Below, piece after piece: positions 5,045 to 63,373 of a stretch of DNA of 64,000 bases. Both the position numbers and the translations under genes were made by a program. Numbering within the stretch: position 1 is the stretch's first letter; every line of letters begins with the position of its first letter. The notes below the pieces were generated by a model. That model was not told where the DNA came from and searched no databases. It saw nothing but the letters and a program-made list of their open reading frames with translations. Source of the stretch: Eledone cirrhosa (Eukaryota); assembly GCA_964016885.1 (NCBI GenBank), contig OZ024744.1, positions 37,262,001-37,326,000 on the forward strand, read 5' to 3'.

Positions 5045-5290
5045 GAGAGAAACCTGCTCGTAAAATTAGTATATAAGTGGCTGAGTATTCCTCGTGGACA
5101 CTTAAAGTAATTCTCAGCGCAATTCAGTATGACACAAAGTAAGACAAGTTTGTCTCTTTGAAGATACAGGCATAGTCCATCCAACGGGCTTCCAAACTGT
5201 TTCCCTCTACCAAATTAAACTCACAATACATGGTTCGATCGGAGGCTATGGTAAATGATACTTGCACAAGATGCCACAAAGAATTCAATG
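5045..5290 (-). mobile_element. Decayed SINE with a CORE-like central region
   Basis: Minus strand gtggcatcttgtgcaagtatcatttaccatagcctccgatcgaacc..ttgtgagtttaatttggtagagggaaac..gaagcccgt resembles invertebrate tRNA-SINE bodies (recognised from memory). Confidence 0.45.

Positions 5291-13353: not shown

Positions 13354-13395
<42 letters not shown>
9762..13395 (+). mobile_element. R4/Dong-clade RLE non-LTR retrotransposon, near full length, disrupted (R4-1)
   Basis: Single-ORF layout: N-terminal WTKELNRTVMQCY..GYRKRMHNIW..EQKLAGQARVI, RT, CCHC, RHD, PD..D endonuclease; short 3' UTR; (AAT)n tail 13341-13395. Confidence 0.92.
9867..13264 (+). pseudogene. R4-1 RT + restriction-like endonuclease ORF, frameshifted
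   Basis: KSPGPDG, YRPITCL, EEQKGC, DYKKAFD, GIFQGDSLSP, LFMDDLKLF, RHD, NRPDLVV..IADVACP, IPIVIGALG across at least 6 ORF pieces. Confidence 0.92.
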
Positions 13396-13397
<2 letters not shown>

Positions 13398-13644
13398 TTT
13401 CTTTATTAACCACAAGGGTTTACATAAAGTAGACATTAAGGACAGTGCAGGACAATGCAGGACGGTACAAATGGGCATTTCTGCGTGTAAAAAACAAAAA
13501 CAGAGGATGTAACAAAAATAACAATGAAAAATTCCCCAATAGGGGGGAGACTTCGGAGGGACATTTGTGGAGAAAGCCCAGTAAAAAGCCACAATGACCC
13601 TGACCACCAGGGCAAGTGCCCTCTCCCAGTTTTCCACCTTTAAT

Positions 13645-16600: not shown

Positions 16601-17062
16601 TCCCACACAGTCCCAGCGTGCATCTAAGATCCCGTTCCAGTTCCCCACTAACACTAAAGAGCGGGATGTTCCAAGAAAGGTCTCCAGACGCCGGAAGAAA
16701 TCAGGCCGCCCTGCTCCTGACGGGGCATAGACGGCCACTAGCCTGAAAGCTTGCCCGTCTCCGCTGGTCACGTCCAGCACCACCAACTTACCCTCTGGGT
16801 CCAGGAAGATGGCCCGTATGGCGAGATCCAAACCTCTCCAAAAAAGCACAGCAACTCCTCCCCCCGATCCAGGACGGCTGGGAGATGCGTATACATCGTA
16901 GTCGCCGAAGATCGGTGCGAAGGCCCGTGCTTCGGAGATTCTGGTCTCACTGATGGCCACTACATCTATGTTTAGTGACCTGAGGTCGTTGAGCAGGTGA
17001 CCCTGCTTCCATGACGACCCGAAGCCACGCGCATTTATGCTGCCTATTCTGAGTGAGGTCAT
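13645..17062 (-). pseudogene. Copy A ORF2 (APE-RT-CCHC), disrupted
   Basis: Aligns with intact ORF2 of copy B; frameshifts near 15170 and 14685, TGG>TGA at 14347, substitutions GDWN>GNWN and FRPI>FRDI. Confidence 0.92.
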
Positions 17063-17791
17063 GTTTAAAATAGAGTGGAAAAGATGGGAAAACCACTTAC
17101 CGTACTTTTCGTAGAGGAGGGATGGTTTTTCCATCCCTTTTCGCTTGGTCGTCTGGTGAAGGGACCGTTGAATCGTCCCTTCGGCTTGTCGTCGGCTCTT
17201 CTATGAGTATGGCCAAATATACTCTTCGGTTGATAGTTCCTCCTAGGTCTCTGAAATCACCAACTGCGTTGGGGAATTTCGTTTTAATGTTTGTGTATTG
17301 TTTCTGTGCTATTTTTAGCAGTCTTATGTTAGTTGGCGTATTGATTGGTGCTGGTATTATGTAGTCGTGTTGTGAAATGTCTGTATGTAAGTCATTAGTT
17401 TCTTGTGTGTATTTATTGCCGTGCATTTATTTTTCTGGGGGTGGGTGTGGTTCTGCTATTTTCTTGTCCTTGTTGCTGGGTGTGTGTGTTTTGTTGTTGT
17501 GTTTGCGATGTTGGTGCTTGTGGTGGTGGTGTTGAAGGTGTTGTTGGCGGTGGGGTTGTCGCCGGTGGTGATGGTGGTGCTAGTGTGGGTGGTGATGGTG
17601 TTGGTGGTGTTGCTGCTGTGAGTCTCTTTGCAGTAGACTTTACCCTTTTTTCATTTCTTTCCTCCCTTTTCAAAGGCGACGATGCGCTGCTTCTGCGTTT
17701 GTGCCTTCTTACGACCTTTTGCCATCCCTCTCCCACCTCACACTCCATGTCTGATTCTGTGAGGTCGGGGAGGGGTACCAGCTCCACTCTT

Positions 17792-18379
17792 TCACTTGGC
17801 GCTTCTTGTCACCATGGCCCTTGCGACTTCCATCTCCTCCTCTGTGACTAACACTGTCTCGATATTTCGGGCGACACCGGCAAAAGAAGTGGTCCCTTTT
17901 TCAGCAGCACCACTATTGCTGCCGCTAATGGTCTTACTGGTGGTGCTGAGGTCGCTATTACATGTATCGATGTCATTGTTGATGTTTTCGTTGGTACAGT
18001 TGTTGGTGTTGTTGTTGTTTTCGTTGATACTGTTGCTGTTGTTACTGTTATTGTGGCTGTTGTTATTATTGTTGTTTTTGTTGATACTATTCCTACTATT
18101 ATTGTTGTTGTGGCTGTTGTTATTGTCATTGTTATTGTCGTTCTCGACCTTACCGCTGTTATTTTTGTTGTTGCTGGAGTTGTTGTTGGTGTTGTTGTTG
18201 GTGTTGTTTGTGTTAGAAATATTTGTTAATTTTAAATCTGTAACAATCTCCTTCTCCTTTTCCTTTCTAATATTTTCGTTTATATTTACCTCCGCCGGAA
18301 CGCTCTCTTGTTGACATCATAAAATCACCCTCTCTCTGTGTTGTCTGACAGCGCTCTCTCTGTTTCTTGTGTTATCCAT
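17792..18379 (-). pseudogene. Paralogous ORF1 N-terminus of copy A
   Basis: caacATGG start, in-frame TGA at codon 21, Asn-rich tract, then SFAGVARNIETVLVTEEEMEVARAMVTRS homologous to SFAGIAKNLETILITNEELEEAKKMVTKN of copy B. Confidence 0.75.
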
Positions 18380-18589
18380 GTTGAAATTTTTTTTTTTCTC
18401 AAAAAATAATTTTACACAAATAAAAGGGTGGCGTATTATTTACGAGTGAACCCCTGTATTAGGTGGGTCAATACTTCTAAACTTTTATCAAATTTAAAAC
18501 TTGAATAAAAGGTTTAGAACGGTTGAAAATGAGGTAAAACGTTGAAAAAAAACTGAGGCGATAAGAAGCGTGGCTTCACCAACAATAAA

Positions 18590-18624
<35 letters not shown>

Positions 18625-18884
18625 TTTCTTTATTAACCACAAGGGTTTACATAAAGTAGACATTAAGGACAGTGCAGGACAATGCAGGACGGTACAAATG
18701 GGCATTTCTGCGTGTAAAAAAACAAAAACAGAGGATGTAACAAAAATAACAATGAAAATAACAATGAAAAATTCCCCAATAGGGGGGAGACTTCGGAGGG
18801 ACATTTGTGGAGAAAGCCCAGTAAAAAGCCACAATGACCCTGACCACCAAGGCAAGTGCCCTCTCCCAGTTTTCCACCTTTAGT

Positions 18885-21800
18885 TTACAGATATATACTC
18901 AGAGTCGGCCCATTCACTCGGGCCATTCTTGCTTCTCTCACCCATCTTTCAACAAAATGCTGGGAAGAGAGCACTTCCCTCTCTACTCTGATTTTCCTTT
19001 TCAAATGAAATTTGAAAAAGTCAATCAGAGCATCACCGAAGAGGTAAGTGCTCGTCTTCAGCCCTTTCAAACGTGTCCACCATACTATCTCTTTCGCCAT
19101 GGCCACCAGACAGATAAAAACTGCCTGCCCTTCCCGGCTAAAGGAGGAGGGCGGGGCAATCCTCACGATGGACTCAGATGATAGCTGGATCCGTCCTAAA
19201 CGCGACAGCAGGTGTTCGACATAAACCCACAAGTCAGCAATTTTCGGACACTGGACGAGTGCGTGCAGGACGGTTTCGTCGCCCTGCGCGCATCTCGGAC
19301 ATGCCCGGCTGACGGCACCTCCATGCCTGTAGAGTTTATCCCGAACTGGCAAGGCTCCTCGGTAGCACTGCCAGGCCAGAGATTTCTGGAAGTTGTCCAT
19401 AGGCCCTGGCCCGAAAGTTCTTCCGAAGAGATTGGCTAGTTGATTTTCGTCGACGCCTAGAGTTTCCCCAAGTACGTCGTCGCTCTTCCCCTCCACTAAT
19501 CCTCTATAGAACGCCGAGGTGGAGTTTCCACCGATCACATTGCCCGATTGGTCGAGGGCTGTGAGCGCCTGAAGACATTCCAGTCTCCAGGCGCTCCCTC
19601 TCGGTCTTCGCTTGACCCAGGACTGCAGCTCCGTCAAGGAAACGAGCTGGGGAAAAACGCGTCTAGCAAACGGCGACCACACCTGATCACCGTCGAGGAA
19701 GAGGTGGAGATGTCGTAGCCTGAGCGCGTGCCTGCGCATCATCAGCCACGGCATGCCCAGCCCTCCACGTAGCGGGTGTTGACAACAGATGGACCGCCTG
19801 ACCATCGGAGCACGTCCCTTCCACAAAAAGCGAAAGAGCAAACGCTCCAGCGCAGTCAGGCGAGGCTTAGGACAAGGTACGACGGTTAGGCGGTAGCAGA
19901 TGACAGACGCGATGTACGCGTTAGCCACCTCCGCTCGACCTTTCAGGGATAGCTTCCTCTCCGCCCATTTCTGGGTGAGAGAAGCCACCCTGCTCGTCAC
20001 CTCGTCCCAGTTTTTGTCCGTCTGGAGGTCCGGACCGAACCAGACCCCTAGCAATTTAACCGGTCCGTCCGTCCAGCGCCCGACGACGCTGTTGGACGGC
20101 ATGGACCTGCCTCTCCAGGTGCCGAGCTGCAGGCCCACTGACTTTTCCTGGTTGATCATTGCTCCTGTCACCGCTTCGTATTCTCTTAGTGTAGTGCCGA
20201 TCGCCTCGATGTGTTTGGCGTTCGACACCACTACGGTGACATCGTCCGCATATGCTGACACGGATCTTCCGCATCCTAGTTCGCGCGGGACTCCCCTCAA
20301 CGTCTCCAGTTTGTGCAGTAATGGCTCGAGAGTCAATACGTACAAGAGGGACGAGAGGGGACATCCTTGGCGGACCGAGCGCATGATGTTGAACGGTTCC
20401 GACAGGTGACCGTTCACTCTCACCACAGAGCAGATGTCGCTGTGCATGGCAGCGATCCAGCCTCTGAAGACGGGCCCAAAGCCAGCCGCCCTCAGGACTG
20501 CCGCTAGGTAACGATGGTCGACCCTATCGAAAGCTTTCGACTGATCTAAATTGATCAAGGACCCACCCGTGCCAGGTTCCCTAGCTACCCTCTCTACGAT
20601 GTATCGCATGAGGTGGAGGTTGTCGTGGATGGATCTGTCGGGAATGGCGCATGTCTGCGCCTCTCCCACCAGACCACCAACGACAAGCGCCAACCTCTTT
20701 GCTAGCACCTTGGCCAAAATCTTAAACTCTGTGTTTAGCAGAGTTATGGGCCGGAAATTGTCTATGTTATCCCCCTTGTTCGGATCCTTTCTCAGCAGTG
20801 CCACCGCTCCTCGGCTCACAGAACTGGGAATTCTCCCGTTCTGTTGCCAGTTGCAGTAGACGTCCGTCAAGAGGCCTCCGAACAAGTCTGGCATCTGTAC
20901 GTAAAGTTCATAGGGCAGACCATCCAAACCAGGCGATTTACCCCTTGTGCAGCCAGTCATTGCCTCCCTTACTTCAGCGGCTGTTATCGGCTTTTCGCAA
21001 CACTTCGCCTCAGTGGCCGAGAGCCGCGGCAGTCCGTCGAGGTAGACACTAAAGTCCATCCCTCTACCCGGCCCCCCGCTGCCCCCGAACAGCTGAGCGA
21101 AGTGTCGCTGAAAAGCTTCACACATTTGCCCGGGATCGAGTAGCATGCGCCCGTCGTGGTCCACCAAAGACCGGATCGTGGCTTTGTTGCCACGACGCGC
21201 CTCCGCCACTCGGGCCCATTGAACGGCTTTCGTCCCCTCGTGTCTGAGAGCACGCACCCTAGCTCTGACAACGCAGCCTTCGTGCTTTGCATTGAAGAAT
21301 TGGTCAAGGGCCAATTTCGCCGCAAGCACGTCGGTCGCAATGCCTTTGCTAAGCGCCTCGTCTAATTTTCTAACTAGTTCTCCCTCTGCTCTATTTTTCT
21401 CTATTGCTAAAGCCTTACTAAACCTAATCGATTCTATTCTAATCGCTCTTTTCAGAGCAAACCACCACTTGTTGTTGACGATGGCCCCCGTCAACGCCCG
21501 CTTAACTAGTTCGCTAATCCGGTCTCTGTAGGCCTTGCGCGCTGGTAAGGACGCGTTTAGCTTCCAGTAGCCGGGTCCTCGTCTATGAAGCCTATCTAAG
21601 TCAAGCACACAGATCACGAATTTGTGGTCCGTGTAGCTGACTATCTTGAATTGTGGACAGCCTATGCTAGACCTATCTATTTCCCTACAAAATACTCTAT
21701 CTAGATATGATCTGGATGACCCTATGCGGTTTGTCCAAGTCCACATTGGCACATTCGGGAAATCCAATCGGTACCTGTCAGACAGTTCAAAACGCCTGAG

Positions 21801-22304
21801 CAGGTTGGTGAGGCTCTTGCACCCTCCACCCCTATCCGCTAATCCCACACAGTCCCAGCGTGCATCTAAGATCCCGTTCCAGTCGCCCACTAACACTAAA
21901 GAGCGCGACGTTCCAAGAAAGGTCTCCAGACGCCGGAAGAAATCAGGCCGCCCTGCTCCTGTCGGGGCATAGACGGCCACTAGCCTGAAAGCTTGCCCGT
22001 CTCCGCTGGTCACGTCCAGCACCACCAGCTTACCCTCTGGGTCCAGGAAGATGGCCCGTATGGCGAGATCCAAACCTCTCCGAAAAAGCACAGCAACTCC
22101 TCCACCCGATCCAGGACGGCTGGGAGATGCGTACACATCGTAGCCGCCGAAGATCGGTGCGAAGGCCCGTGCTTCGGAGATTCTGGTCTCGCTGATGGCC
22201 ACTACATCTATGTTTAGTGACCTGAGGTCGTTGAGCAGGTGACCCTGCTTCCATGACGACCCCAAGCCACGCGCATTTATGCTGCCTATTCTGAGTGAGG
22301 TCAT
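18885..22304 (-). CDS. ORF2: APE endonuclease + reverse transcriptase + CCHC finger (1139 aa)
   Basis: INARGL, ISET, VAVYAP, VGDWN, SYLDR, TDHK; KSPGLDGLP, FRPITLLN, LDQSKAFDRVDH, VRQGCPLS, YADDV; CPRC..HALVQC. Confidence 0.96.
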   Translation of the reverse strand: MTSLRIGSINARGLGSSWKQGHLLNDLRSLNIDVVAISETRISEARAFAPIFGGYDVYASPSRPGSGGGVAVLFRRGLDLAIRAIFLDPEGKLVVLDVTSGDGQAFRLVAVYAPTGAGRPDFFRRLETFLGTSRSLVLVGDWNGILDARWDCVGLADRGGGCKSLTNLLRRFELSDRYRLDFPNVPMWTWTNRIGSSRSYLDRVFCREIDRSSIGCPQFKIVSYTDHKFVICVLDLDRLHRRGPGYWKLNASLPARKAYRDRISELVKRALTGAIVNNKWWFALKRAIRIESIRFSKALAIEKNRAEGELVRKLDEALSKGIATDVLAAKLALDQFFNAKHEGCVVRARVRALRHEGTKAVQWARVAEARRGNKATIRSLVDHDGRMLLDPGQMCEAFQRHFAQLFGGSGGPGRGMDFSVYLDGLPRLSATEAKCCEKPITAAEVREAMTGCTRGKSPGLDGLPYELYVQMPDLFGGLLTDVYCNWQQNGRIPSSVSRGAVALLRKDPNKGDNIDNFRPITLLNTEFKILAKVLAKRLALVVGGLVGEAQTCAIPDRSIHDNLHLMRYIVERVAREPGTGGSLINLDQSKAFDRVDHRYLAAVLRAAGFGPVFRGWIAAMHSDICSVVRVNGHLSEPFNIMRSVRQGCPLSSLLYVLTLEPLLHKLETLRGVPRELGCGRSVSAYADDVTVVVSNAKHIEAIGTTLREYEAVTGAMINQEKSVGLQLGTWRGRSMPSNSVVGRWTDGPVKLLGVWFGPDLQTDKNWDEVTSRVASLTQKWAERKLSLKGRAEVANAYIASVICYRLTVVPCPKPRLTALERLLFRFLWKGRAPMVRRSICCQHPLRGGLGMPWLMMRRHALRLRHLHLFLDGDQVWSPFARRVFPQLVSLTELQSWVKRRPRGSAWRLECLQALTALDQSGNVIGGNSTSAFYRGLVEGKSDDVLGETLGVDENQLANLFGRTFGPGPMDNFQKSLAWQCYRGALPVRDKLYRHGGAVSRACPRCAQGDETVLHALVQCPKIADLWVYVEHLLSRLGRIQLSSESIVRIAPPSSFSREGQAVFICLVAMAKEIVWWTRLKGLKTSTYLFGDALIDFFKFHLKRKIRVEREVLSSQHFVERWVREARMARVNGPTLSIYL

Positions 22305-22339
22305 GTTTAAAATAGAGTGGAAAAGATGGGAAAGACCAC

Positions 22340-24436
22340 TTACCGTATTTTTGGTAGAGGAGGGATGGTTTTTACATCCCTTTTCACTTGATCGTCTGGT
22401 GAAGGGACCGTTGAATCGTCCCTTCGGCTGGTCGTCGGCTCTTCTAAGAGAATGTCTGAATATACTCTTCGATTAATGGTTCCTCCTAGGTCCCTGAAAT
22501 CACCAACTGCGTTGGGGAATTTCGTTTTAATGTTTGTGTATTGTTTCTGTGCTATTTTTAGCAGTCTTATGTTAGTTGGCGTTTTGATTGGTGCTGGTAT
22601 TATGTAGTCCTGTTGTGAAATGTCTGTGTGTTCAATTATGTAAGTCATTAGTTTCTTGTTGTGTGTGTTTATTGCCGTGCATTTGTTTTTCTGGGGGTGG
22701 GGTGTGGTTCTGCTATTTTCTTGTCGTTGTTGCTGGGTGTGTGTGTTTTGTTGTTGTGTTTGCGATGTTGGTGCTTGTGGTGGTGGTGTTGAAGGTGTTG
22801 TTGGCGGTGGGGTTGTCGCCGGTGGTGATGGTGGTGCTGGTGTGGGTGGTGATGGTGTTGGTGGTGTTGCTGCTGTGGGTCTCTTTGCAGTAGACTTTAC
22901 CCTTTTCTCATTTCTTTCCTCCCTTTTCAAAGGCGACGATGCGCTGCTTCTGCGTTTGTGCCTTCTTGAGACCTTTTGCCATCCCTCTCCCACCTCACAC
23001 TCCATGTCTGATTCTGTAAGGTCGGGGAGGGGTACCAGCTCCACTCTTTCACTTGTTGTTGTTGGTGATGTTTGCACTGGAGTCTCTGTTGCAGCTGCAT
23101 TTGGTATTGCTGTTGTTGTTGTTAATATTTCCACTGCTGCTGCTGTCTTTGATTTCCGTGGAGTGGGTATGGGTGCCACGGACCTATCGTTCCTGGTTGC
23201 CGCTTGTCCTGTTGCTGGTAGCCGTGGAACCGGATTCGGGAGGAGGGGGGTTTTCTCCTTTCTCAGGGTCTTCTCGTTGCAGAAGGCCCTGAGGTGAGTC
23301 TTCGATCCACAGCGAAAGCATTTCGGGCGTTTGCCCTCAACACTTATGGGCAGTTGAGTGCCGTTATCGAAGTCTATCACATCCGGGATAGCTTCGATGC
23401 ACTCCTGGTTGGTTTGGATTAGCATCTCAATGGAGGAGCCGACCCAATCTTCTCTTACTTTTTTCTGTACTTGCAGTACAGTTGTTTTGTCCTCGATTCC
23501 GACGAGGACAGACGCGGCCAGCCAAGAAGGGGTCATTCCGGGGGGGACGTGGGTCAGTTTGACCCTCACAATTTTTTGCCCGCAGTAGGAGGGCACCAAC
23601 ACCATTTCCTCGCTCCTTAGGGTCACTACTGATTGGGCCTTTGCCTCCTGGGGTGTGGCAAAAAGTACGTCTACGGTGGCGTATTTTTTGCCTCGGGTGA
23701 TGTGCGTTTTCCTCTGCCACACAGACCCCAAGGCTTTTTGTATTTGGGCCTCTGTGGCTCTTTCCACCCTACGGGATTTTGTACTTACTGTACGGTACGT
23801 GACCGTACAGTGCTCTTGGGTTTCGAAAAAATTTTTCGCTGCCTTGCAGATTGCTCGGTGTCCGTTCTTTGTCACCATCTTCTTCGCTTCCTCTAATTCC
23901 TCATTTGTTATGAGGATTGTTTCCAGGTTTTTCGCAATACCTGCAAATGAGATTGGTTTTTCTCTGCTGTTGTTGTTGTCGTCAGAGCTGCTGGTACTTT
24001 TGTTGTTGCTGCAGGTACTACGACTACTGCCTCCGCCGCTGTTGCTGTGGTTGTTGTTGGTGTTGCTGCTGCTAATGCTGTTGTTGTTTATGCTGCTGGT
24101 GATGCTGTTGCGGCTGCTACTGTTGTTTTCATTGTCACTGTTGCTGTTGTTATTACGGCTGCTACTGCTATTATTCCTGACGTCAGACGAATGAACTGGG
24201 TTTTCGTATTTCCCGCACACCTGTTTCGTCGCTGTCGTCGTCGTCGTGGAGAAACCTTGCACGCTTTGCACGAGACTTTTCTTTTCTTTCGTCGCTTGCG
24301 AAAGAGAAGGGAGGGAGAGAGACACATTTAAAGAAGGGAGGGAGAGAGACAATCTTCTCTCTGCTGTAGTGATGATTGAGGAAGAAGAAGACGGAATGAG
24401 TGGGAGTGACGTATGAAATTTCTTTTTCGTAGCCAT
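22340..24436 (-). CDS. ORF1: gag-like nucleic-acid-binding protein with CCHC knuckle (698 aa)
   Basis: Uninterrupted ORF upstream of ORF2; S/N-rich N-terminus, RRM-like middle, CFRCGSKTHLRAFC knuckle, P/T-rich C-terminus. Confidence 0.9.
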   Translation of the reverse strand: MATKKKFHTSLPLIPSSSSSIITTAERRLSLSLPSLNVSLSLPSLSQATKEKKSLVQSVQGFSTTTTTATKQVCGKYENPVHSSDVRNNSSSSRNNNSNSDNENNSSSRNSITSSINNNSISSSNTNNNHSNSGGGSSRSTCSNNKSTSSSDDNNNSREKPISFAGIAKNLETILITNEELEEAKKMVTKNGHRAICKAAKNFFETQEHCTVTYRTVSTKSRRVERATEAQIQKALGSVWQRKTHITRGKKYATVDVLFATPQEAKAQSVVTLRSEEMVLVPSYCGQKIVRVKLTHVPPGMTPSWLAASVLVGIEDKTTVLQVQKKVREDWVGSSIEMLIQTNQECIEAIPDVIDFDNGTQLPISVEGKRPKCFRCGSKTHLRAFCNEKTLRKEKTPLLPNPVPRLPATGQAATRNDRSVAPIPTPRKSKTAAAVEILTTTTAIPNAAATETPVQTSPTTTSERVELVPLPDLTESDMECEVGEGWQKVSRRHKRRSSASSPLKREERNEKRVKSTAKRPTAATPPTPSPPTPAPPSPPATTPPPTTPSTPPPQAPTSQTQQQNTHTQQQRQENSRTTPHPQKNKCTAINTHNKKLMTYIIEHTDISQQDYIIPAPIKTPTNIRLLKIAQKQYTNIKTKFPNAVGDFRDLGGTINRRVYSDILLEEPTTSRRDDSTVPSPDDQVKRDVKTIPPLPKIR

Positions 24437-24675
24437 GTTGTTTTTTGTTTAAAATGAAATTTTGGGTACAAAACCCCAATAACTGATTATTTAACCCCGA
24501 AGGGCCAAATAACGGACAGAAAGACCCCTCTCACGAGGAGGAGGGTGTCTTTATCAACAATTTGGTTCAAGTTTTAAACAATTTACAATTGTTTTAACGG
24601 TTAAAAATTACTATACCTTACAGAGCCGAGCCTCCGTCAACCATGGCATTCAATAATAATAATAATAATAATAAT

Positions 24676-27421
24676 TATGCATCGGCTAAAGTCACCACTC
24701 ACTTATGTGGAGTGAAGATGAAAAAACAAAGGAATTCCCACAAGAAATCTACTTGGCAAGATAACATCAATCGCCAAATAAACCTTCTCCGATCTGACAT
24801 AGAAATTTTAACAAACTATAAAGTAGGTGAACATGTTAAACAAACTAAACTTAGAAAATTGAAAAAAAAGTACAGTATAAGATCAACATGTGACATAGAC
24901 ATGCTGATAGAAACAATCAAGCAAAAAGTGTCGGCCAAAGCTGCTCGTATAAGGCGCTTTGAAAAACGATCTAGATTCTATAAGGACAATAATATGTTCA
25001 AAAACAACCAAAGAAACTTCTACAGAAAAATTGGTAAGTCAACAATAACTGCTAAATCAATACCACCCAAGGAGGAAGTGCAAGAATTCTGGGAAAAGAT
25101 CTGGGCCGAAGAAAAAGTTCATAACATACATGCCCCATGGATAGACAGACAAATGAAAGAAACAGCTCACCTTGAGGAACAAACATGGGAAAATATAACA
25201 GTTGAACAGCTGCGCTTGGCTCTAAGAAAAACCAGCAAATGGAAATCCCCAGGAAAAGACAAAATACAAAACTTTTGGATAAATGCCTTCACAGAGTCTC
25301 ATGAGCTGTTAGCCCAACTTTACAATGAAATAGTTAAGGAGCCAGAAAAGATACCACCATGGCTAGTTAACGGCATTACATTCCTGCTACCGAATAATGA
25401 TGAGACAAACAATCCCAAAAATTACAGACCGATAACCTGCTTGACCACAATGTATAAAATTTTAACATCAGTCCTAACTGAATACACATATGACCACCTG
25501 ATAACAAATGACCTATTTCCCATTGAGCAGAAAGGGTGTAAACGAGGCTCATATGGCTGTAAGGATCAGCTTCTGGTTAACAAAATGATACTGGAAGATT
25601 GTCATAATAGGCACAAAAATCTATCGATTGCTTGGATAGATTATAAAAAAGCATTTGATAGTTTGCCACACAGTTGGATTGAAAAATGTTTAGAGATTTT
25701 CAAAATATCCCCCGTTGTCAGGAGGTTTTTGTCATTCAGTATGAGGACATGGAGAACGACACTCCTTTTGAATAGTGAAACAAAATCACTGGAAGCTGGA
25801 GAAGTTAACATTAATTGTGGAATTTTTCAGGGTGACTCTTTATCACCGCTTTTATTCTGCATCGCACTTATACCATTAGAGTCTATGACAAAACCTGAAA
25901 CTATTTGCAAAAAATGATGAACAATTGCAAGGGCTATTATCCACTGTGAAGCAGTTCAGTGATGACATTAAAATGGAGTTTGGACTGGATAAATGCGCCA
26001 AAGCAATGTTCACCAGAGGAAAGCTGCTGAAGAGTTCAGACATTAATCTTCATCGGGGGAACGTGATAAGAGAGCTTGATCAAGAACAAACTTACAAATA
26101 TCTAGGTGTTTGTGAAGGAGACGGAATCAAGCACTCGACAATGAGGGAAAGGATAAGGAAGGAATGTTACCGCAGAGTCAGAGCAATCTTAAGAACGGAA
26201 TTGAATGCAAGGAATAGGATCGATGCCATAAACACGCTTGCCATACCAGTAGTAACCTACAGTTACAATGTCATCAACTGGTCAAGCACAGAGATCTGTA
26301 GGCTCGATACAAAAATCCGAAAATTCTTAACCATGCACAGAATGCATCACCCTAAGGCAGACATAGATATAATATATCTCCCTAGGAAAGAAGGAGGACG
26401 TGGGTTAATCCAGTTAGACATTGCGTTGAAAACTGCAACAATTGGATTATCCACATATCTAAGGGAATCACATGATTGGATGATCAAACTCGTTTTGAAA
26501 CACGAAAGCACCAAAAGATCATATTCCATTACAAAAGATGCACAAAGATACAGTAATGGACTACAAATTTCAGAAGTCCCATTTACTGCTGAAATGGAAA
26601 ACACAGAAAAAGCAAAGCAGGTAAAAGTAACTGCAAAGAAAGAACTGCTACAGAAACTGGCTAAGAAATGTCAAGAAAAGCCTCTGTATGGAAAATACCC
26701 AGAGCGAGCTAACAATCCTGATGTTGACAAAACTTTAACCCATCAGTGGTTGGCATCCTCTGGACTGAAATCGGAGACTGAAGGACTGATTATATCCGGA
26801 AAAGATCAGTATCTGCCAACACAAAATTACCAAGCCAACATAATAAAAAATGGATGCCGTGTATGCAAAAAACAACCAGAGACCATTGACCATATAATTT
26901 CAATGTGCAGTCCTATAGCTCCAACCGAATACCTAAACAGGCATGACAGAGCTGCACAATACATACATTGGATAATGTGTAAGCATTTTGACCTACCCCA
27001 TCAAAAGAATTGGTGGGAGCATCAACCACCTCCCATACTTGAAAAAGATCACATCTCAATCTTGTGGAACTTTAGCATCCAAACGTACCGAAAAATAGAT
27101 GCAAATAGACCTGATATAATATTGAAGGACTTTAAAATGAGGGTATGCCTGCTAATTGATATGTTCGTTCCAATAGACAAGAATGTATGTATAAAAACAT
27201 TTGAAAGATTGAGCAAGTATAAGGACCTGGAGATAGAAATTGGAAAAATGTGGAAATTGAGAACTAAAACAATACCAGTAGTTGTAGGCGCTCTGGGAAT
27301 GATACCTAAGGTGTCTAATGATTACTTATCGCAAATCCCAGGAAACCCGCGTATAGGAGAAATACAAAAGATAGTACTACTGGGAACTGCCCATATACTA
27401 AGGAAGATTCTGTCAAGATAA
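24676..27421 (+). pseudogene. R4-2 RT-RLE ORF with internal deletion of the catalytic MDD region
   Basis: ORFs 24643-25917 and 25925-27421; after GIFQGDSLSP..LIPL the sequence jumps to LKLFAKND with a frameshift near 25880; CRVC..H..C, RHD, NRPD, KYKDL and VVVGALG are retained. Confidence 0.9.
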
Positions 27422-27564
27422 GTACATCACAAGTCTAAACACTAAAGATGCATGTGTGAGTATATATGTTCTTTCGTGAACATGGCGGACCTTGTTGTCT
27501 CTTGAGGTCACTGGTTGTGACTTGGTGATAACTCGTATGAACATAAAGCAAGATAAATGCAACT

Positions 27565-27596
<32 letters not shown>
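24676..27596 (+). mobile_element. 5'-truncated R4/Dong-clade element (R4-2), (AAT)n on both sides
   Basis: RT and RLE motifs homologous to but diverged from R4-1; (AAT)8 at 24652-24675 and (AAT)10 tail at 27567-27596. Confidence 0.93.
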
Positions 27597-27598
<2 letters not shown>

Positions 27599-27829
27599 TG
27601 TCTTTATTAACCACAAGGGTTTACATAAAGTAGACATTAAGGACGGTACAGGACAATACAGGGCGGTACAAATGGGCATTTCTGCGTGTAAAAAAAACAT
27701 AACAGAGGATATAATAAAAATAACAATGAAAAATTCCCCAATAGGGGGGAGACTTCGGAGGGACATTTGTGGAGAAAGCCCATTAAAAGGCCACAGTGAC
27801 CCTGACCACCAGGGCAAGTGCCCTCTACC
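27597..27829 (-). mobile_element. 3'-UTR-only insertion of the copy A/B family (copy D)
   Basis: Aligns with 13396-13628 and 18623-18868; (AAT)n on both sides. Confidence 0.92.
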
Positions 27830-27847
27830 AATAATAATAATAATAAT

Positions 27848-30823
27848 GATTTCATTTATTAGCCACAAGGGCCGACATGTAGGGGACAATACAAAGACAG
27901 GGACAGTGGGGTTTACAATAAGGTCGAGTAAAAGTGCACAATGGCAAGACTAATTTAACAATGAAAATATAAAAATATAAAATAAACTATGCTTAAACAT
28001 AACAAAATAAATTCCCCGATAGGGGATCGACGACCCTGGGGTGATTCGGGTACCCCACCAATCCTGAACCACCCTGCGCTTCTAGGGCACCCAGGAGAGC
28101 ACCCCTCTCCTCAAGTTAGCCAGCCTATAGGCGCATGGTCAGAATAGGCCCATTCACACGAGCCATTCTCGCCACATTCACTCACCTTTTAGCAAATGTA
28201 CTGGGGGGCAGCACTTCTCTCTCCACCCTCACCCTCCTTTCCAGGTGAAACTTGAAGAAGTTGATGAGGGATTGGCCGAAGAGAAAAGTGTCTGCCTTTA
28301 GTCCTTTCAACCTGGTCCACCATATAATCTCTTTCGCAACTGCCACCAGACAGAGGAAAATGTCCTGCTCTTCCTGACCTAAGGAAGGTGGCGGCTCGAT
28401 CTTCACTATGGACTCGGCCGATAGCCGGATTCGTTCCACACGCGACAGTAGCTGTTCGACATAACTCCACAAGTCAGTAATGCACGGACATTAGACAACT
28501 GCGTGCAGAACGGTTTCGTCGCTCTGTACGCATCTTGGGCAGGTCCGTCTGAGAGCACTTCCGTGTCTGTAGAGTTTATACCGAACCAGCAGTGCCCCCC
28601 GGTAGCACTGCCAAGCGAGGGATTTCTGGAAATTGTCCATCGTCCCCGGCTCCAAAGTCCTCCGGTACAGACTGGTCAGTTCGACTTCGTCGAGGCCCAA
28701 AGCTTCTCCGAGTGCGTCATCGCACTTGCCCACCACTAATCACCTATAGAACTCGAGAGTGGAAGTTCCACTGATCGCATTGCCCGCTTGGTACAGGGCA
28801 GTGAGTTCCTGGCAACATTCCAGGTGCCAGTCACCCAGTCTCGGTCTTCTTGAACAAGGACTGCAGCTCAGTCAAAGAAATGAGCCGCGGAAAGGCCCGT
28901 CTGATAAACGGCGACCACACCTGTTCACCATTGAGGCAGAATATCTGGAGATGTCGCAGCCTCAACGCATGTCTGCGCATCATTAGCCACGGCATGCCCA
29001 GCCCTCCGCGTAGAGGGTGCTGGCAGCAGATGGACCGCCTCACCAACGGAACTTGTCCACTCCACAAGAATTTGAAGAGGATCCGTTCAAACTTAACGAG
29101 GGGCAGACGGAGGGCAAGGCACGACGGTTAGGCGGTAGTAGATGACTGACGCGATGTACGCATTCGCCACCTCCGCGCGACCTTTCAGGGATAGCTTCCT
29201 CCCAGCCCATTTTTGGGTGAGACTGGCTACTCTGCTCGTTACCTCGTCCCAATTATTTTCCACCTGGAGGTCTGGTCCGAACCAAACCCCGAGCAACTTT
29301 ACTGGTCCGTCCGTCCAACGCCCCACGACGCTGTTGGACGGAATGGGCTTGCCTCTCCAGGTTCCGAGCTGCAAGCCCACCGATTTTTCCGGGTTAAGTT
29401 TGGCTCCTGTCAACCTTTCATATTCCTTCAATAAGGTGCCGACCACCTCGATTTCTGAGGTGTTCGACACCATCACCTTCCACGTCCGGGTTCGAGCGGG
29501 ATGCCCTGCAACAGCTCCAGCTTCCGCAATAAAGGCTCGAGAGTCAATACGTACAGAAGGGAAGAGAGAGGGCACCCTTGACGGGCCGATCGGGAGAGCC
29601 GAAATGGTTCTGAGAGGTGGCCATTAACCTTGACCACCGAGCGTGTGCCGCTGTGCATTGCAACGATCCAGCTTCTAAAGACAGGGCCGAAGCCAGCTGC
29701 TTTGAGGACAAACTCCAGATACCGATGGTCGACCCTATCGAATGGTTTCGATTGATCTAAATTGATCAGTGCCCCACCGAAGCCAGGTTTACACCCTACC
29801 CTCTCTATGATGTATCGCATGAGGTGGAGATTATCGTGTATGGACCTGGCTGGGATTGCGCAAGTTTGCGCCTCCCCAACCAAATCCTCGACGACAAGCG
29901 CCAATCTCTTTGCTAATACCTTGGCCAAAATCTTAAACTCTGTGTTGAGCAGAGTTATGGGCCTGAAGTTGTCTAATGTATCCCTCTTGTTCTCGTCTTT
30001 CCTCACAGAACTGGGAATACTCCCATTCTGCTGCCAGTTACAGTAGAGTGCTTCGAGGAGTTCGGAGAACAAGTCTGGCATATTTACGTAAAGCTTCTAG
30101 GGCAGGCCATCCAAACCGGGTGACTTGCGCCTCATGCAGCCGACAAGGACGTCCTGAAGTAATCGGCCTTTCGCAGCGCTCAGCGTCGACCGTCGAGATG
30201 CGCGGCAAGCCGTCAAGGTAGGAACTGAAATCCGCTACTCTCTCTGACGCGCCACTCTCCATGAACAACCGAGCAAAGTGCTGGCGAAAGGCCTCACACA
30301 TCCGCTTGGAATCGCTTATCTCGTGTCCGCCTCGGTCCGCCAAAGACCGAATTGTGGTTTTATTACCACGCTGCGCCTCCGCCACGCGGGCCCATCGAAC
30401 AGCTTTAGTTCCCTCGTTTCTCAGCGCACGCGCCTTAGGTCTGACAATGCAACCTTCGTGTTTGGCATTGAAAAATGGTCTAATGCCATTCTCGCCGTTA
30501 GCACGTCAGTTGCAATGCCACTACAAATAGCCTCGTCTAACCTATCTACCAGCTCCTCCTCCTTTCTATTTTTCTCTAACGCTAGTTCTTTGCTGAACTC
30601 TATCGAAGTTACTCTAATCTCTCTTTTGAGAGACCCCCACCATCTGTTGTTGATGATCCCCCCTGTCAACTTTTGCTTAACTAACTTGTTGACTCGGTCC
30701 CTGTAAGCTTTACGTGCCGGAAATGACATGTTCAGCTTCCAGTAACCCGGTCCCAACCAACGCGTTTTATTTAGGTAGACCGTACAGATCACAAATTTGT
30801 GATCTGAATAGGCGACCGCTTTT
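27848..30823 (-). mobile_element. 5'-truncated, decayed L1/Tx1 paralogue (copy C)
   Basis: ORF2 remnants 28125-30820 (SDHKF, GYWKLN, FRPITLLNTEFKILAK, RQGCPLS, CPRC..ETVLH) with frameshifts and loss of YADD; distinct 3' UTR; (AAT)6 and (AAT)5 flanks. Confidence 0.92.
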
Positions 30824-57498: not shown

Positions 57499-57832
57499 CT
57501 CTTTCTCTCTCTTTCTCTCTCTCTCTCTCTCTACTCCCTTCTTTTTTCTATTTTTTCTTTCTTCTCTTCTTTTTTCCTTTTTCTCTTCTACCTTCCTTTT
57601 CCTCTATTTTCCTATCTATTTCTTACTATAGGATTAACACTTATATTTCTGTCATATGTAGACTTAGCACTTTCCTATAAACAAGTGCTATTATGCCAGA
57701 TATCATTGTACCTTATTTTATCTGAGGAGAACACAATTTTTGTCCCTGGATGATTTTGTATTCGAAATACGTATAATAAAATATATGGAACTCTTATAAC
57801 CATATTTTATTTCATCTTTATTATATATATTA
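56660..57832 (+). mobile_element. PLE-like remnant with short inverted terminal copy and hammerhead
   Basis: 56741-56773 pairs with 57797-57829; hammerhead plus AATAAA near the right end; internal (CT)n 57404-57530. Confidence 0.6.
57714..57783 (+). ncRNA. Type I hammerhead ribozyme motif with canonical core
   Basis: TATTTTAT-CTGAGGA-GAAcACAA..TTGTaTTC-GAAA-TACGTA-T-A-ATAAAATA; G10.1-C11.1 present; helix III ATACGTAT palindromic. Confidence 0.82.
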
Positions 57833-58026
57833 TATATATTATATAAATAAATAAATATATATATATGTACATATATATTTACGTATAGCACGGAGTTATG
57901 TGCATAAACACACATGTATTATGACAGTATTGTGTTAGCTCAATGTGTTAGCTCAATGTACAAGAACAGAGCCGTTATATGAGAAAGAAACCAAAGAACG
58001 CTTACATACTCAAACAGTTTTTATTT

Positions 58027-58071
58027 GCTTACAATGTTTCATCCATACCGTTTGGTAGAGATCCTCAGAGC
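58027..58071 (-). ncRNA. Minimal hammerhead motif directly followed by AATAAA
   Basis: GCT-CTGAGGA-TCTcTACC-aaac-GGTAtGGA-T-GAAA-CATTG-T-A-AGC-aAATAAA (GUA triplet). Confidence 0.72.
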
Positions 58072-59599
58072 TTAACTAATACAGTGCTGAGTATAAGCTC
58101 CACAAAGCCTAGTCACACGAACAATCGGATGGTAAAGATAGGGAGATCGGAGATGGCAAACAAGGAGAGGGTACATGTTGGGGTTGTTAAGCATCACAGC
58201 TAAATGCCAGGGCACAAGTAGATTTCACAAGATGCAGATACAATTGATGGCTCACAAAAGCAAAAAATACAGGCAATGGTTAAAACATAATAAAAAATAA
58301 AATAATAAAAAAAAATAAAAAAAAAAAACGGAAGATAATATAAAGAGATAAAAAGTAAAAAGGTAAAAAAAAAAATAAAAAATAAATAAAAATAAAAAAC
58401 AAAGAAGAAAAATGTTTTAAGCACATAAAGAAGCCAGAGGAATTTAAGCGCTGGTCCCCAATAAAACGAGTGAATTGGATCTCCGTAACTTATAGTTATA
58501 TAAGCATTAGGAGGTCCTTGCGGTACATCCAGAAAGACCACAGTAATCAGAATCCCCGCCATGTTATACATATACAAGGTATACTGGTAGGTACCCGAAT
58601 TACGTAGCCCATGGGTGCTCCACAAGCATATAGGTAGGTATTACATAAGTGCAAGCCATACACAAGCAAATTAGGGTTATTACAGGATAGAGCTGAGTAT
58701 AACAAGTATATAGGCAGGCACCACATATAAAGCAAACTATGCCCAAACAAATCTGGGTTATTGTAAGATAGAGCTGAAGCAATCTTATTTTAGTTACTGT
58801 AAAACCAACTGGCAAATTATTACACATGTATATTAACCGTATAGGCTAGACCAATCGGTTACATATTTCCCGAATATCTAGGGGTTAAATAGAAATAGGG
58901 TTGTCAGTAGAAAACTAATCCGTCTAAATAACACAACATATGTAGATCGTTCAAAAGTACAAAATAGTTGGATATAAATTATCACTCAAACATAACATCA
59001 CATCCAGTCACATGAATTACATGCTGGATTTATACATCAAAAAACCCCTCTATGTATAAGATCCGAAGCCGTATATTATAATGAGTTCAAGAATCAGTTC
59101 CAGATTCAAAGTCTCCACACACAATCCAGTCACGAACTCGTCAAAAACAATGCCTGGTAACAGCGGCAGCGATCCACGTGGGTAAACAATCTATACAAAA
59201 CAGAAAAGAAAATAACACGAAGTGCCCAAATCATTAAATCCACCAGTTACGCTAACATGCCTGCTAGGTGGAGTCAAACCCCAACATATATAGAGAGATT
59301 ATAAAAGACAGCCTACATACCACGTAAATTTATAAATCTGGCTCAAGATAACATGTTACTTTGTTTATCGCCGCTAAGTGTATAGAAATGCACATCAGTT
59401 GATGACGTTTTTAGTCAGATAATGACGTGGCGTAAAGGTGGTAAATAAAGGGGGATTACTCTAATGTGTCATCTATAAGGTTATTTAATTCGGACTGCAA
59501 ACAAAATAAAAATAAATAGAAAAAATAATATTTAATCACCAACAGACCTCATACTAATTCGACAGATTCGTGCTAAACAAACTATATTGTTATTAAGTA

Positions 59600-59979
59600 T
59601 TAATGGACCTGCAGCTTTGTCAAGTGTATTACACTAAAGATCATTAAAACTCGGTTACTATATGAAAAGTCGAAAAGGCCGATTACTAAAACTAAAATGG
59701 GGGAGTGTTCAACAGGAGTAAAGACCCAAAATCCCACATAAAAGGAACTCACAAATTCCCAATGTGCCAACACGGTGTTCTCAATCCCGGTATGACCTGT
59801 ATGTATTACCAAGGGTGGGGAGTGGGAAGGGTACGCAAGTTCCGCATTAGGGAGGGTCCAACTATTAACTATATACGCCCCAATAGGTCTGTGGGACTAA
59901 GTCCATTGGGGCGAGTGTTGGAATTACGCTCATCGTAATAGTAATAAGTTGTTATATAAGATCCAAAATCATTCGCCAT
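59600..59979 (-). pseudogene. Disrupted small ORF of unknown function (repeat unit 1, about 125 codons)
   Basis: MANDFGSY..GPSLMRNLRTLPTPHP/..NTVLAHWE..PVEHSPILVLVIG..SNRVLMIFSVIHLTKLQVH*; one stop, one frameshift; codon-level similarity to unit 2. Confidence 0.6.
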
Positions 59980-60066
59980 AAATATTAAGGACGTAACGCC
60001 AACCATCCACAATCATAGTGATACTATACTAATTGTACAAATAAAAATAAAAATAAAATGATAAAG

Positions 60067-60370
60067 TTAATAATTATAATAATAGACCTCCAGGATTATC
60101 AGGTGTGTTGTACGATAGACCATTACAATCCGGTTACCAAGTGATATTTTAATAGACCCTATTGTTTCACTAATTCTAATATGGGGGAGTGTTCTAATGG
60201 GTTCGGTTCAATCAGAGAGTATAATATATAGGTTCCATAGTAGGTAGAGTTATAATAATCCCAATGTGCAAGTATTGTGTCCACATTACCAGGGTGGGGA
60301 GTGTGCAGTGCACGCATGTTCCGAAGCATGAATGGTCCAGCAGAGATGCCCAAAATGGTTATTTGGACTA
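60067..60370 (-). pseudogene. Disrupted small ORF of unknown function (repeat unit 2, 5' end lost to (TA)n)
   Basis: [59 protein letters not shown]. Confidence 0.6.
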
Positions 60371-60402
60371 TATATATGCATATATATATATATATATATA
60401 TA

Positions 60403-60476
<74 letters not shown>

Positions 60477-61069
60477 TGTATATATGTATATATATATATA
60501 TATGAAAAAGATGACCCCGACGGCAGAGCTCAAGCCGTTTCATCAACTAGGGGGCTAAAAGTGGAGACGGAGACCTTGTGTTTTTTAGCAAATGAAAAGA
60601 ACACTTTGGGGTTGAGTTTGATTTACTCAATGGCCCACCTTTCTTCAGCTATTCTCTGGTTATTGATGATGGTTACCATGCATTGCTGCAGGTTATATTT
60701 TTTTGACTCAAGCAGGGTGATAGCCGTCGAATGTGTGTGTTGCTGTTGGCAGTATTTTAGTGTGTTAATTTTTTTATTTGTTCTTTTTATTTTTTTTTAT
60801 AATTGTTTTTCTGTGTTGGGGGATACTGCACTTAGTTTTGTTCACAGGTTTTGGTGGGGGTGTGTTTTGTACATATATTTGTCACAGTGTCTACAAAGAT
60901 CTGCCAATATGTTTTGATGTTGGTGAAGTGTGTGCGTGTGTAAAAGACCTGTCAACATGTGGTAGTTCGTTCATAATTGCATCCCAGGTGGCATTGTAGA
61001 GATCCATGTTATCAAATGGGTGGGCTGGAAAGAGGTCCCTAGGATTAGCTTTCGGCTGGTAGAATCTCA

Positions 61070-61750
61070 GGTTACAAAGAACCATGTCATGGTCTGAGAA
61101 CATGTTTTTTTACACTGTAATATTATGTAGTGTTAGTGTGGTTACTAAACACTACATCCAGAATGTTCTTCTGATGCCTTGTTGGTGCAAGGACAAGTTG
61201 GGACAAGACAAACTCATTCATGAAGTCAAGAAGTGACTCGACAGCCTCTTTGTCAGTGGTTGAGGCTGAGGAACCTGGTTTCAAACTACATGTAGACCAA
61301 TGGACACAGGGTAGATTAAAGTCTCCCATCAAAAGTATGTTGCTAGAATGGCACTGTTTAATAAAGCATTTAATACTGTTGAGGCATTCTTTGAAACAGA
61401 TGATGGGTGGTTGTGGGGGCCTATAGAGCCCAACTAATGTCAGGTCATTGGCTTTATTGTGCACAGTGACTGATACACAGTATCCATTAGAGAATGTTGT
61501 GTTGCCATCTGCCGTAAAGGAATCATGCAGGAAAATGGCAGTTCCACCCTTCCTTCTGCCAACACGATTCGCACGGATGGTTGTGAAATTTCTCACTCTT
61601 ACTTCGGTCTCCAAGTGGGATTGTCAAGGTGGGTCTCAGTAAGAATGAAGGGGATGTGAAATGGATGGTTACCAACCCAATCCTCAATGAATTGGATCTT
61701 CCATTTCTGTGGATTGGTGGATGGGCTGATACCTTGTGTATTGAGTGAGA
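61070..61750 (-). pseudogene. APE endonuclease domain, frameshifted
   Basis: LNTQGI, LTETHL, R..RKGGTAIF, GLYRPP, LMGDFNLP, PTR..NILDVVF, FSDHDMV. Confidence 0.88.
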
Positions 61751-61813
61751 ATGTGGAGGCTAGTGTGGTGGCTGGTTTTGACTGTTGCAGGGGGCTTGTT
61801 TTGTGATTGTGTG

Positions 61814-62683
61814 TTAGTGACAGCAAGGATGGTGTTGGGTGATGGCTAAAATGTTTTTCTCTATCTCTTTTGCCAAGTTCATGGCTAAAAAAGAAAGATT
61901 TATTTTTTGTTCAGGGAGCAGTTTTTGATTGGATGTGTGGTTACAACATTGGATAGGGTTGCAGTTCCCTCTTTTGTTTTTGTTTTTGTATTTGTTGTAA
62001 TTGTGTCTTTGTGAAAAGACTGGAGCAGCGTTATTTTTGTTGATATTGTATTTGTTGTTGTAATCGTGTCTTTGTGGGGAGATTGGAGCAGCATTACCGC
62101 AGCAGGGGGCGGCTTTATCCTGGTTTGTGGGTTGGCATGAAGCCCCTTTTCTGTTCGTGCGTTGTGTCCCAGAAAGATGAGTGAAGGGACAGTCAGTCAG
62201 CAGACATAGCTTCTCACGTTGGGAATGTTGGCAGATTTTGGGACTGCGACCTATACGTGCGGGCCTGGCAGTGTTAGTGCGCCTAGTACCCGGTAAATGG
62301 GTAAATATACAGTCGCTACGTGTGCATAGCCTCTGACGTAGTGAGTAGCGGCATATTTGGAGTTTCAAGTATGTGAAGTGGGGTGGGGTGCATCCAGCTC
62401 CATAAATTTAAAAAAAAAAGTTATTTTGACTATGGCATGGCCGTGGTGGTGATGTGGGGGAAGGAAGCATTAGTGGTGATGATGATGATAACTGTGGTGG
62501 GAGAGAGAGCAGTGGTCCATTACTAGCAGTTGATGCGGCAGAAGATGGTGACGGTGGTGATGGTGATGGTGATGGCGATGGCAGAGTGAGTGGGTGAGTG
62601 ATACTGTCATTCTGTAATAAAGCTATTATGCTTGAATTCAGTGGTTGCTCCTGGTTTTCTGGCTGTTGTTGTTGTTGTGGCAG

Positions 62684-62753
<70 letters not shown>

Positions 62754-63097
62754 GGCTGTTGTTGTTGCTGTGGCTGTTGTTGTGGCTGTTGTTTTTGTTG
62801 TGGCTGTTGTTTTTGTTGTGGCTGTTGTTGTGTTTGTCCAATGGAGTAAATATTTCGAAGTTTTTCAAAATGGTTTTGAATTAGTTTGAAAGAGACTTCT
62901 ACGTGTTTTAGTTTGTTGAGTACCTGCTTAGCAGACCTCGTGGTAAATGTTTGAGCTGTTTTTTCAGCAATTTCATTCAGACATGACGCGTTAATGTTTA
63001 TTGTTTGTGACAGAGAAAACCATGTGTTTATTTCATTTAGGTCAATTTCATTTTCAGACCAATTTCGTCCGTTGTGGGCTTGTTGGTTAGTAGTCAT
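61814..63097 (-). pseudogene. LINE ORF1 with polyQ, P/S-rich tract and tandem CCCH zinc fingers (frameshift at the T-run near 62410)
   Basis: CRYSLRQRLCTRSDCIFTH and CQHSQREKLCLLTDCPFTH (C-x8-C-x4-C-x3-H); ATG at 63097; directly upstream of APE. Confidence 0.72.
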
Positions 63098-63373
63098 GTT
63101 TTTTTCTTTTTTTTTTTACCCTTGTGTGTGTTTTAAGATATTTGACATTTGATACGTGAGTGAGACTTTGGTTATTTGAAGAAATTAAAGAATCGTGTAT
63201 ATATATATATGTATGTAAAAGGTAAACAGAAATAACGACACAATCGGTACAGTATATATATATATTGTGTACATAGATTACATACTAAATTTAAGTGAGA
63301 AAATCTCTCCTTATGGGTGTATAAACCAGACAGATAATGTGTTAGGAGGTATTGATTTTTTTGTGATTGTGAC

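What the first reader, a model, noticed from the sequence alone, without database searches (positions are those of the whole stretch)
57920..60370. Unexplained element with tandem paralogous small ORFs upstream of a hammerhead and poly(A) signal
Seen: two minus-strand units about 480 bp apart align as protein over about 90 aa ([106 protein letters not shown]). Many differences are synonymous (ccc/cca, ctt/ctg, acc/aca, ttg/ctt, cct/cca, att/ata, gta/gtg), implying past purifying selection. A weaker third unit may be ITISYGDPIHSFYWGPALKFLWLLY (about 58425-58500). Units are separated by U-rich spacers, some ending like splice acceptors (ttttgtttgcag near 59495, ttttgtatag near 59191). The segment ends in a hammerhead plus AATAAA. 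I recognise no protein family. Inference: a large PLE/retrozyme-like or virus-derived element carrying an accessory gene array.
Basis: partly seen in the sequence, partly recalled or inferred. Interest (0 to 1): 0.72.

Follow-up and report, generated by a model that had tools for sequence, protein, structure and literature searches.

The report
Non-coding tail of Hydra Penelope retroelement
This stretch is the tail of an old, front-truncated copy of a known kind of jumping gene (a Hydra-clade Penelope-like element); its two tandem units are one duplicated piece of DNA that shows no sign of coding for protein, and its hammerhead is a predicted, untested self-cutting RNA, so it is ordinary apart from the tail being long for this clade.

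Summary
The tandem units (479 bp apart), hammerhead motif and AATAAA are real; the accessory genes are not. Window 60371-57872 (minus) is a 5'-truncated copy of a high-copy repeat lying between (TA)n tracts. Fuller copies put it directly behind one RT + C-terminal GIY-YIG ORF with the Hydra-clade marks (RW[RK], DKT, CxCx5C, CxxC/CxH, no CCHH). Across 31 unit copies, dN/dS is 0.72-1.09 in all six frames, each with 17-23 shared stop positions. The RT-EN ORF control gives 0.22-0.66 and no internal shared stops. The unit diverges as fast as RT four-fold sites. The pair arose by one duplication in one subfamily; older subfamilies have one unit; no third unit was found. AATAAA can pair as outer stem I, and copies end in (TA)n, not poly(A). 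Mildly unusual: 1.9-3.1 kb non-coding 3' regions give ~5-6 kb monomers, versus 2.1-2.7 kb for published complete Hydra families. The scan noted Hydra-type elements before, in this and other genomes.

The parts
57872..60371 (-). 5'-truncated copy of a Hydra-clade Penelope-like element: non-coding 3' region (pLTR-forming part) plus leader tail; no RT/EN left in this copy
   Evidence: 86-93% identical to the nearest copies
60372..60505 (.). (TA)n tract at the 5' junction of the insertion
60009..60371 (-). unit A of the tandem duplication (5'-cut, carries a 22-nt deletion); non-coding
59547..59988 (-). unit B of the tandem duplication; non-coding
58622..58777 (-). second, small internal tandem duplication (about 80-bp period, 76% identity)
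58280..58420 (-). U-rich tract that varies in length between copies; explains the long stop-free F/L/Y reading that includes the proposed third unit
58020..58079 (-). type I hammerhead motif: CUGAnGA from 58068, GAAA core, 3-bp stem III with 1-nt loop, predicted cut after 58030 (GUA); 17 of 19 modelled pairs kept in this copy
58020..58025 (-). AATAAA; can pair with the upstream U-rich strand as outer stem I; poly(A)-signal role untested
57872..57984 (-). about 105-nt 'long end' extension, equal to the first part of the leader that precedes the ORF start in full-length copies
57800..57871 (.). (TA)n / AT-rich tract at the 3' junction

Best explanation
The region is the long non-coding 3' part of a Hydra-clade Penelope-like retroelement, left as an old 5'-truncated copy between two (TA)n tracts, likely by reverse transcription that began at the element's 3' end and stopped early; the two units are one 480-bp duplication, not genes. 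Shown: full copies read hammerhead - AATAAA - 230-nt leader - one RT + GIY-YIG ORF of about 850 codons - 1.9-3.1 kb 3' region - hammerhead. Copies share two fixed 3' ends, have variable 5' ends, often with inverted partial copies, and end in (TA)n. Inferred from known PLE biology: transcription starts in an upstream partial copy (pLTR), the GIY-YIG nicks (TA)n, and the RT copies the RNA from its 3' end. The hammerhead, with its 3-bp stem III, would cut mainly as a dimer to trim tandem precursors. Inferred here: the unit was duplicated once in a source element, likely by a template jump during reverse transcription, and both halves then drifted without protein constraint while the family kept spreading.
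For: Repeat with shared 3' ends and inversions: 71 matches, 40 of 1738 first-look candidates scored. RT-EN ORF directly upstream in C3:74.90 Mb and other copies; RVT_1 E 7e-5, below Pfam's cut-off. An intact 845-codon ORF exists in a younger sister subfamily (L153). Hydra motifs. (TA)>=3 at 56 of 66 copy ends against 11.8% of random positions. Unit dN/dS 0.72-1.09 with 17-23 shared stop positions per frame; ORF control 0.22-0.66 with 0. 0 of 8 unit windows have a stop-free sense frame, against 28 of 28 ORF windows. Unit divergence equals or exceeds RT four-fold sites in 16 of 18 pairs, and is 0.01 lower in 2. A and B each form one side of a 100/100 branch, with matching branching order. Hammerhead stems 89.5% paired over 52 copies, with both-side changes at 2 stem II pairs.
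Against: My own automated block pick on the real pair gave pN/pS 0.45, about 1.6 SD below the shuffled mean, so a faint trace of ancient coding is not excluded. Stop-free readings of 100-117 codons occur in single copies (L094, L098), and one of 78 codons in most copies of unit A. Most copies are decayed, which dilutes any signal, although the ORF control kept its signal in the same copies. Rfam does not recognise the hammerhead, and two of its covariation measures are at shuffle level. The RT-EN tree against reference Hydra sequences was not built.
Confidence: 0.92

Rival explanations
1. The element carries an array of small accessory proteins under purifying selection (first reader; Terminon-like or virus-derived cargo).
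For: Peptide blocks look alike; 13 synonymous differences in 53 codons; dN/dS 0.62 in the chosen blocks.
Against: Stops are shared by many copies in every frame, including inside the blocks: 10 of 31 rows at the first codon of block 1 and 14 of 31 at the W of AHW. A 22-nt frameshifting deletion is shared by two copies. No periodicity; neutral rate. No family hit below E 0.1. A young sister subfamily with an intact RT ORF has 26-39 majority stops per frame in its own 3' region.
Confidence: 0.03
2. The unit is a long-dead fragment of a coding gene captured behind the ORF; it was once translated and now drifts.
For: Weak sub-1 dN/dS in chosen blocks. Open stretches of 102-117 codons in one frame in the L091/097/098/099 subfamily. 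PLEs are reported to transduce host DNA (PMC6431247, passages).
Against: That frame has shared stops in the other subfamilies. tblastx between the deepest 3' regions finds only low-complexity matches. No donor was seen among the 72 matches, but only 40 of 64 candidates were scored and their contexts were not all read.
Confidence: 0.06
3. The long 3' region is a functional cis-region (promoter for the downstream tandem copy, or RNA structure) kept by selection on length or composition rather than on sequence.
For: Every subfamily measured has 1.8-3.1 kb between ORF and hammerhead, with a U-rich tract near the end. In Penelope and Chlamys the pLTR holds the start site (PMC8557442, passages).
Against: Overall divergence is at the neutral rate. 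Upstream partial copies in front of full ORFs are often only a few hundred bases long. No structure scan of the region was run apart from the hammerhead. This rival can hold together with the best explanation.
Confidence: 0.2

Closest known systems
Hydra clade of C-terminal EN+ Penelope-like elements (Craig et al. 2021, PMC8557442; e.g. Hydra-1_Obim, Penelope-1_NV)
   Same: Single RT + C-terminal GIY-YIG ORF; RW[RK], DKT, CxCx5C, CxxC and CxH, no CCHH; canonical type I hammerhead with 3-4 bp stem III and 1-nt loop as in the paper's File S2; (TA)n targets; tandem and inverted partial copies.
   Different: Monomers measure 4.8-5.4 kb hammerhead to hammerhead and an estimated 5.9 kb in the window's subfamily, against 2084-2729 bp for the 14 complete families among 27 listed. 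The tail extension is about 105 nt against the 30-40 bp described for PLEs. The motif is mostly RWR rather than RWK.
Terminons (Athena-type giant PLEs of bdelloid rotifers; PMC6431247, passages)
   Same: PLE with long sequence ahead of a 3' hammerhead; mostly 5'-truncated copies.
   Different: Terminons carry real accessory ORFs and attach to telomeric repeats; here there is one ORF, an in-frame endonuclease, interstitial (TA)n insertion and no accessory ORF.
Non-LTR retrozymes (bioRxiv 10.64898/2026.07.22.740005, part 1 of 5 read)
   Same: Type I hammerhead related to PLE pLTRs; no protein in the stretch.
   Different: Retrozymes are short tandem units with a hammerhead in each; the two units here hold no hammerhead and are part of an RT-encoding element.

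Membership tests
Hydra-clade PLE | single ORF with RT and C-terminal GIY-YIG endonuclease | tested here: met
   intact 845-codon ORF in L153. Met by fuller copies; the window copy has lost it.
Hydra-clade PLE | RWK motif in the N-terminus | tested here: met
   RWR or RWK in most N-termini shown (RWK in L086, L108); decayed variants in some
Hydra-clade PLE | DKG changed to DKT | tested here: met
   SDKTK in most copies, DNT in L081/L083
Hydra-clade PLE | CxCx5C linker before the endonuclease | tested here: met
   CNCRRSENC / CNCRRKAEC
Hydra-clade PLE | no CCHH; CxxC and CxH flanking the conserved E and N | tested here: met
   CNLC...E...N...CIH read by eye
Hydra-clade PLE | canonical hammerhead near the 3' end | tested here: met
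   (motif and pairing; no Rfam hit; activity not tested)
Hydra-clade PLE | insertion into (TA)n | tested here: met
   56 of 66 ends against 11.8% background (one locus counted twice, several rows end by divergence)
Hydra-clade PLE | generally short (<3 kb); descriptive, not diagnostic | tested here: not met
   monomers 4.8-5.4 kb measured
Hydra-clade PLE | RT falls in the Hydra clade of a reference tree | not tested
   reference proteins were not brought into the tools
Terminon-like element with accessory ORFs | extra ORFs under purifying selection | tested here: not met
Terminon-like element with accessory ORFs | telomeric repeats after the hammerhead | tested here: not met
   ends are a fixed U-rich stretch or leader tail, then (TA)n or (CA)n
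Non-LTR retrozyme | tandem repeat units, each with a hammerhead | tested here: not met
   one hammerhead in the region, none in units A or B
Self-cleaving hammerhead | cleavage at the GUH site | not testable with these tools
   no RNA run listed; needs an in vitro assay

The most novel reading that the evidence does not exclude
This Hydra lineage repeatedly captured and replaced 2-3 kb of foreign, probably host-derived, DNA between its ORF and its hammerhead. Four subfamily groups have 3' regions that align only near their ends. That would make these elements high-copy carriers of non-coding cargo and double the size known for the clade. Simple neutral divergence of one ancestral long 3' region would give the same picture and is not excluded.
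Probability: 0.25. Interest if true: 0.45.

Novelty: new member of a known kind. Interest (0 to 1): 0.17.

Why it matters
Mostly a negative result: the apparent accessory genes vanish once many copies and an internal coding control are used. It adds a Hydra-clade family about twice the published length, with two fixed 3' ends, an AATAAA that can pair inside hammerhead stem I, and a young sister subfamily with an intact ORF (L150-L158, 91-98% identical). That subfamily could serve to test what the long 3' region and the hammerhead do.

Tried and rejected
Rfam scans: no hammerhead family match, only simple-repeat artefacts. Unconstrained fold of 58000-58100: z -1.0, hammerhead fold not the minimum-energy one. 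Pfam on 3 window readings and 2 from other copies, PHROGs on the same 5: best E 0.12 (ASFV_p49) and 0.29, treated as chance. tblastx among 3' regions hits all six frames alike, or only low-complexity sequence. Sequencing runs: no RNA holder listed, which is no evidence either way; no reads were laid, so splicing, circles and ends at the hammerhead stay open. Spliced leader copies: none among the 16 aligned leaders or the 8 of 20 printed; a small sample. A motif scan for other Hydra families' 3' lengths returned nothing, probably because the pattern was too strict. My recalled guess of the Nematis clade was dropped after reading the paper's diagnostics. Structure prediction and fold search of the units were not run, since no conserved ORF exists. 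Literature searches: 'Penelope-like + hammerhead + additional ORF', 'Penelope-like, Nematis, Naiad, pLTR', 'Penelope, octopus, transposable, hammerhead' and 'Penelope-like elements, hammerhead, long 3, Hydra clade' listed no paper describing a Hydra family with a 2-3 kb 3' region. The library lacks most subscription papers and Repbase. The supplement of PMC8557442 was read only in part (part 2 of 59, file cut), and bioRxiv supplements are closed.

Full report
Observation. The minus strand of 60371-57872 lies between two (TA)n tracts. Two units 479 bp apart align at the DNA level. A hammerhead core (CUGAGGA ... GAAA ... GUA) sits at 58068-58030, with AATAAA at 58025-58020. Rfam gives no hammerhead match.

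What it belongs to. The stretch is a dispersed repeat: 71 matches at 73-95% identity apart from the window itself, from 40 scored of 1738 first-look candidates, most sharing the 3' end, with variable 5' ends and inverted partial copies. The copy at C3:74.90 Mb continues 5' into an RT (GLYRDD) and GIY-YIG ORF that ends about 640 bases before the point matching 60371. Forty further 10-kb loci, chosen from the hits, show the same order. Full copies read hammerhead, AATAAA, about 230 nt of leader, then ATG. The proteins carry RW[RK], DKT, CxCx5C, CxxC and CxH, and lack CCHH. These are the Hydra-clade features in PMC8557442 (section 11 read; section 12; passages). Of 66 copy ends that do not run into the ORF, 56 have (TA)>=3 nearby, against 11.8% of 5000 random positions. 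Ends cluster at two sites, about 55 and 160 nt after AATAAA, and the window has the longer one. The named protein relatives are from octopods (2 of 33 hits).

Are the units genes? I aligned 31 unit copies (profile hits covering more than 330 of 486 positions; 5 shorter hits dropped). Over 406 columns and 310 pairs under 80% identity (the two cut rows left out of pairing), dN/dS was 0.72-1.09 in the six frames, with 17-23 stop positions shared by at least three rows in each. The RT-EN ORF of 11 of these loci gave 0.22, 0.30, 0.37, 0.66 and 0.38 in five 400-nt windows with no shared stop; the endonuclease of 23 loci gave 0.42 with one shared stop. In 90-nt windows, 0 of 8 unit windows had a stop-free sense frame and phase contrast was 1.04-1.21. 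All 28 ORF windows were stop-free in one frame, and 20 of 24 RT windows had contrast of 1.5 or more. The 31 windows from 59528 to 58002 had contrast 1.08-1.48; 7 had a stop-free sense frame, 4 of them in or beside the U-rich tract. Unit divergence equalled or exceeded RT four-fold sites in 16 of 18 pairs. Among 41 rows close to the window copy, each frame had 41-49 majority stops.

Their dN/dS is 0.62 in the window, 0.68 in other A-B pairs and 0.88 among single-unit copies. Picking the four best stop-free blocks from 200 phase-destroying shuffles of the same pair gives pN/pS 0.67 +/- 0.14, against 0.69 observed. My automated pick on the unshuffled pair gave 0.45, which is suggestive only. Stops fall inside the blocks in 10 and 14 of 31 rows. 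The long unit-A reading depends on a 22-nt deletion found in the window and 1 of 8 other copies. No third unit was detected. The acceptor-like AGs are kept in 11 of 17 and 11 of 23 rows. Pfam and PHROGs give nothing below E 0.1.

History of the pair. Fifteen single-unit copies fall outside a group of 16 in which all 8 A rows and all 8 B rows each form one side of a 100/100 branch, with the same branching order (joint branch 93/93, midpoint root). One duplication in one source lineage is the simplest reading (inference).

Hammerhead. Over 52 copies, 89.5% of cells pair, against 36-44% for slid controls. Two stem II pairs change on both sides; the cleavage triplet varies as GUA, GUU and GUC in most copies; CUGAnG and GAA-core positions are invariant or nearly so. 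Two of five measures were at shuffle level, and the structure was drawn from these sequences, so the slid control flatters it. AATAAA pairs as outer stem I in 33-48 of 52 rows per pair. PMC4209133 (passages) reports that such short-helix-III hammerheads need dimers and cut poorly in vitro; activity here is untested.

How it likely works. From established PLE biology (PMC8557442, passages): a tandem or partial upstream copy supplies the start site, the endonuclease nicks (TA)n, and reverse transcription from the 3' end often stops early. That leaves 3' stubs like this one. These steps are inferred, not shown here.

What is unusual. The 3' region is 1.9-3.1 kb. Monomers are 4.8-5.4 kb where both hammerheads are present, and about 5.9 kb by estimate for the window's subfamily. 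Complete Hydra families are 2084-2729 bp (14 of 27 listed; supplement part 2), although PLEs in general measure 4-6 kb (PMC6431247, passages). Four subfamily groups have 3' regions that align only near the ends. A young group has an intact 845-codon ORF and again no conserved 3' ORF; its longest open runs (108-241 codons) overlap simple repeats, apart from one 159-codon antisense run in L153 that was not followed up. Replacement and plain divergence cannot be told apart here.

Verdict. An ordinary truncated copy of a new, long member of the Hydra clade; the accessory-gene reading is rejected. Earlier scan notes report Hydra-type elements in this and other genomes; they are unreviewed leads, not support.

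Noticed in passing
window 60540-63115 (-): Decayed non-LTR retrotransposon fragment: apurinic-type endonuclease (Exo_endo_phos_2, E 9e-11) with upstream Q-rich and Cys/His-rich readings.
   Followed up: partly
window 60500-60545; L016:400-850: End of another small repeat next to the (TA)n tract, found as an inverted pair in L016 and in L005, L020, L028.
   Followed up: no
L167:2480-2780 and L168:2490-2790: Internally deleted copies: leader plus about 100 nt of ORF joined to the last about 190 nt with the hammerhead, at different junctions; short non-autonomous derivatives.
   Followed up: partly
L150-L158 (e.g. L153:2467-5016): Young sister subfamily, 91-98% identical over six aligned copies, one with an intact 845-codon RT-EN ORF and a 2.3-kb 3' region containing (GT)n-like tracts and internal duplications.
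   Followed up: partly
window 58005 and L081:2075-2080: GTAAGC just after AATAAA and TTGACAG just before the ATG could bound a retained leader intron, as in Penelope; the GT is not kept at that position in L114/L117, and no spliced copy was seen.
   Followed up: partly
L081:1905-2035 and homologs: The leader holds two similar GCTC...GAGCTAA hairpin-like motifs kept across all subfamilies aligned.
   Followed up: no
window 13354-30804: Three related GC-rich copies of several kb (13354-17798 vs 18581-23055 at 96.7%; 28135-30804 at 73-75%).
   Followed up: no
L021:217-4187 and 5070-5170; L022:2076-3089; L027:5414-5914: Other PLE families nearby: an inverted Penelope-type RT-EN copy, a different hammerhead end, and other Hydra-type endonuclease ORFs.
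   Followed up: no
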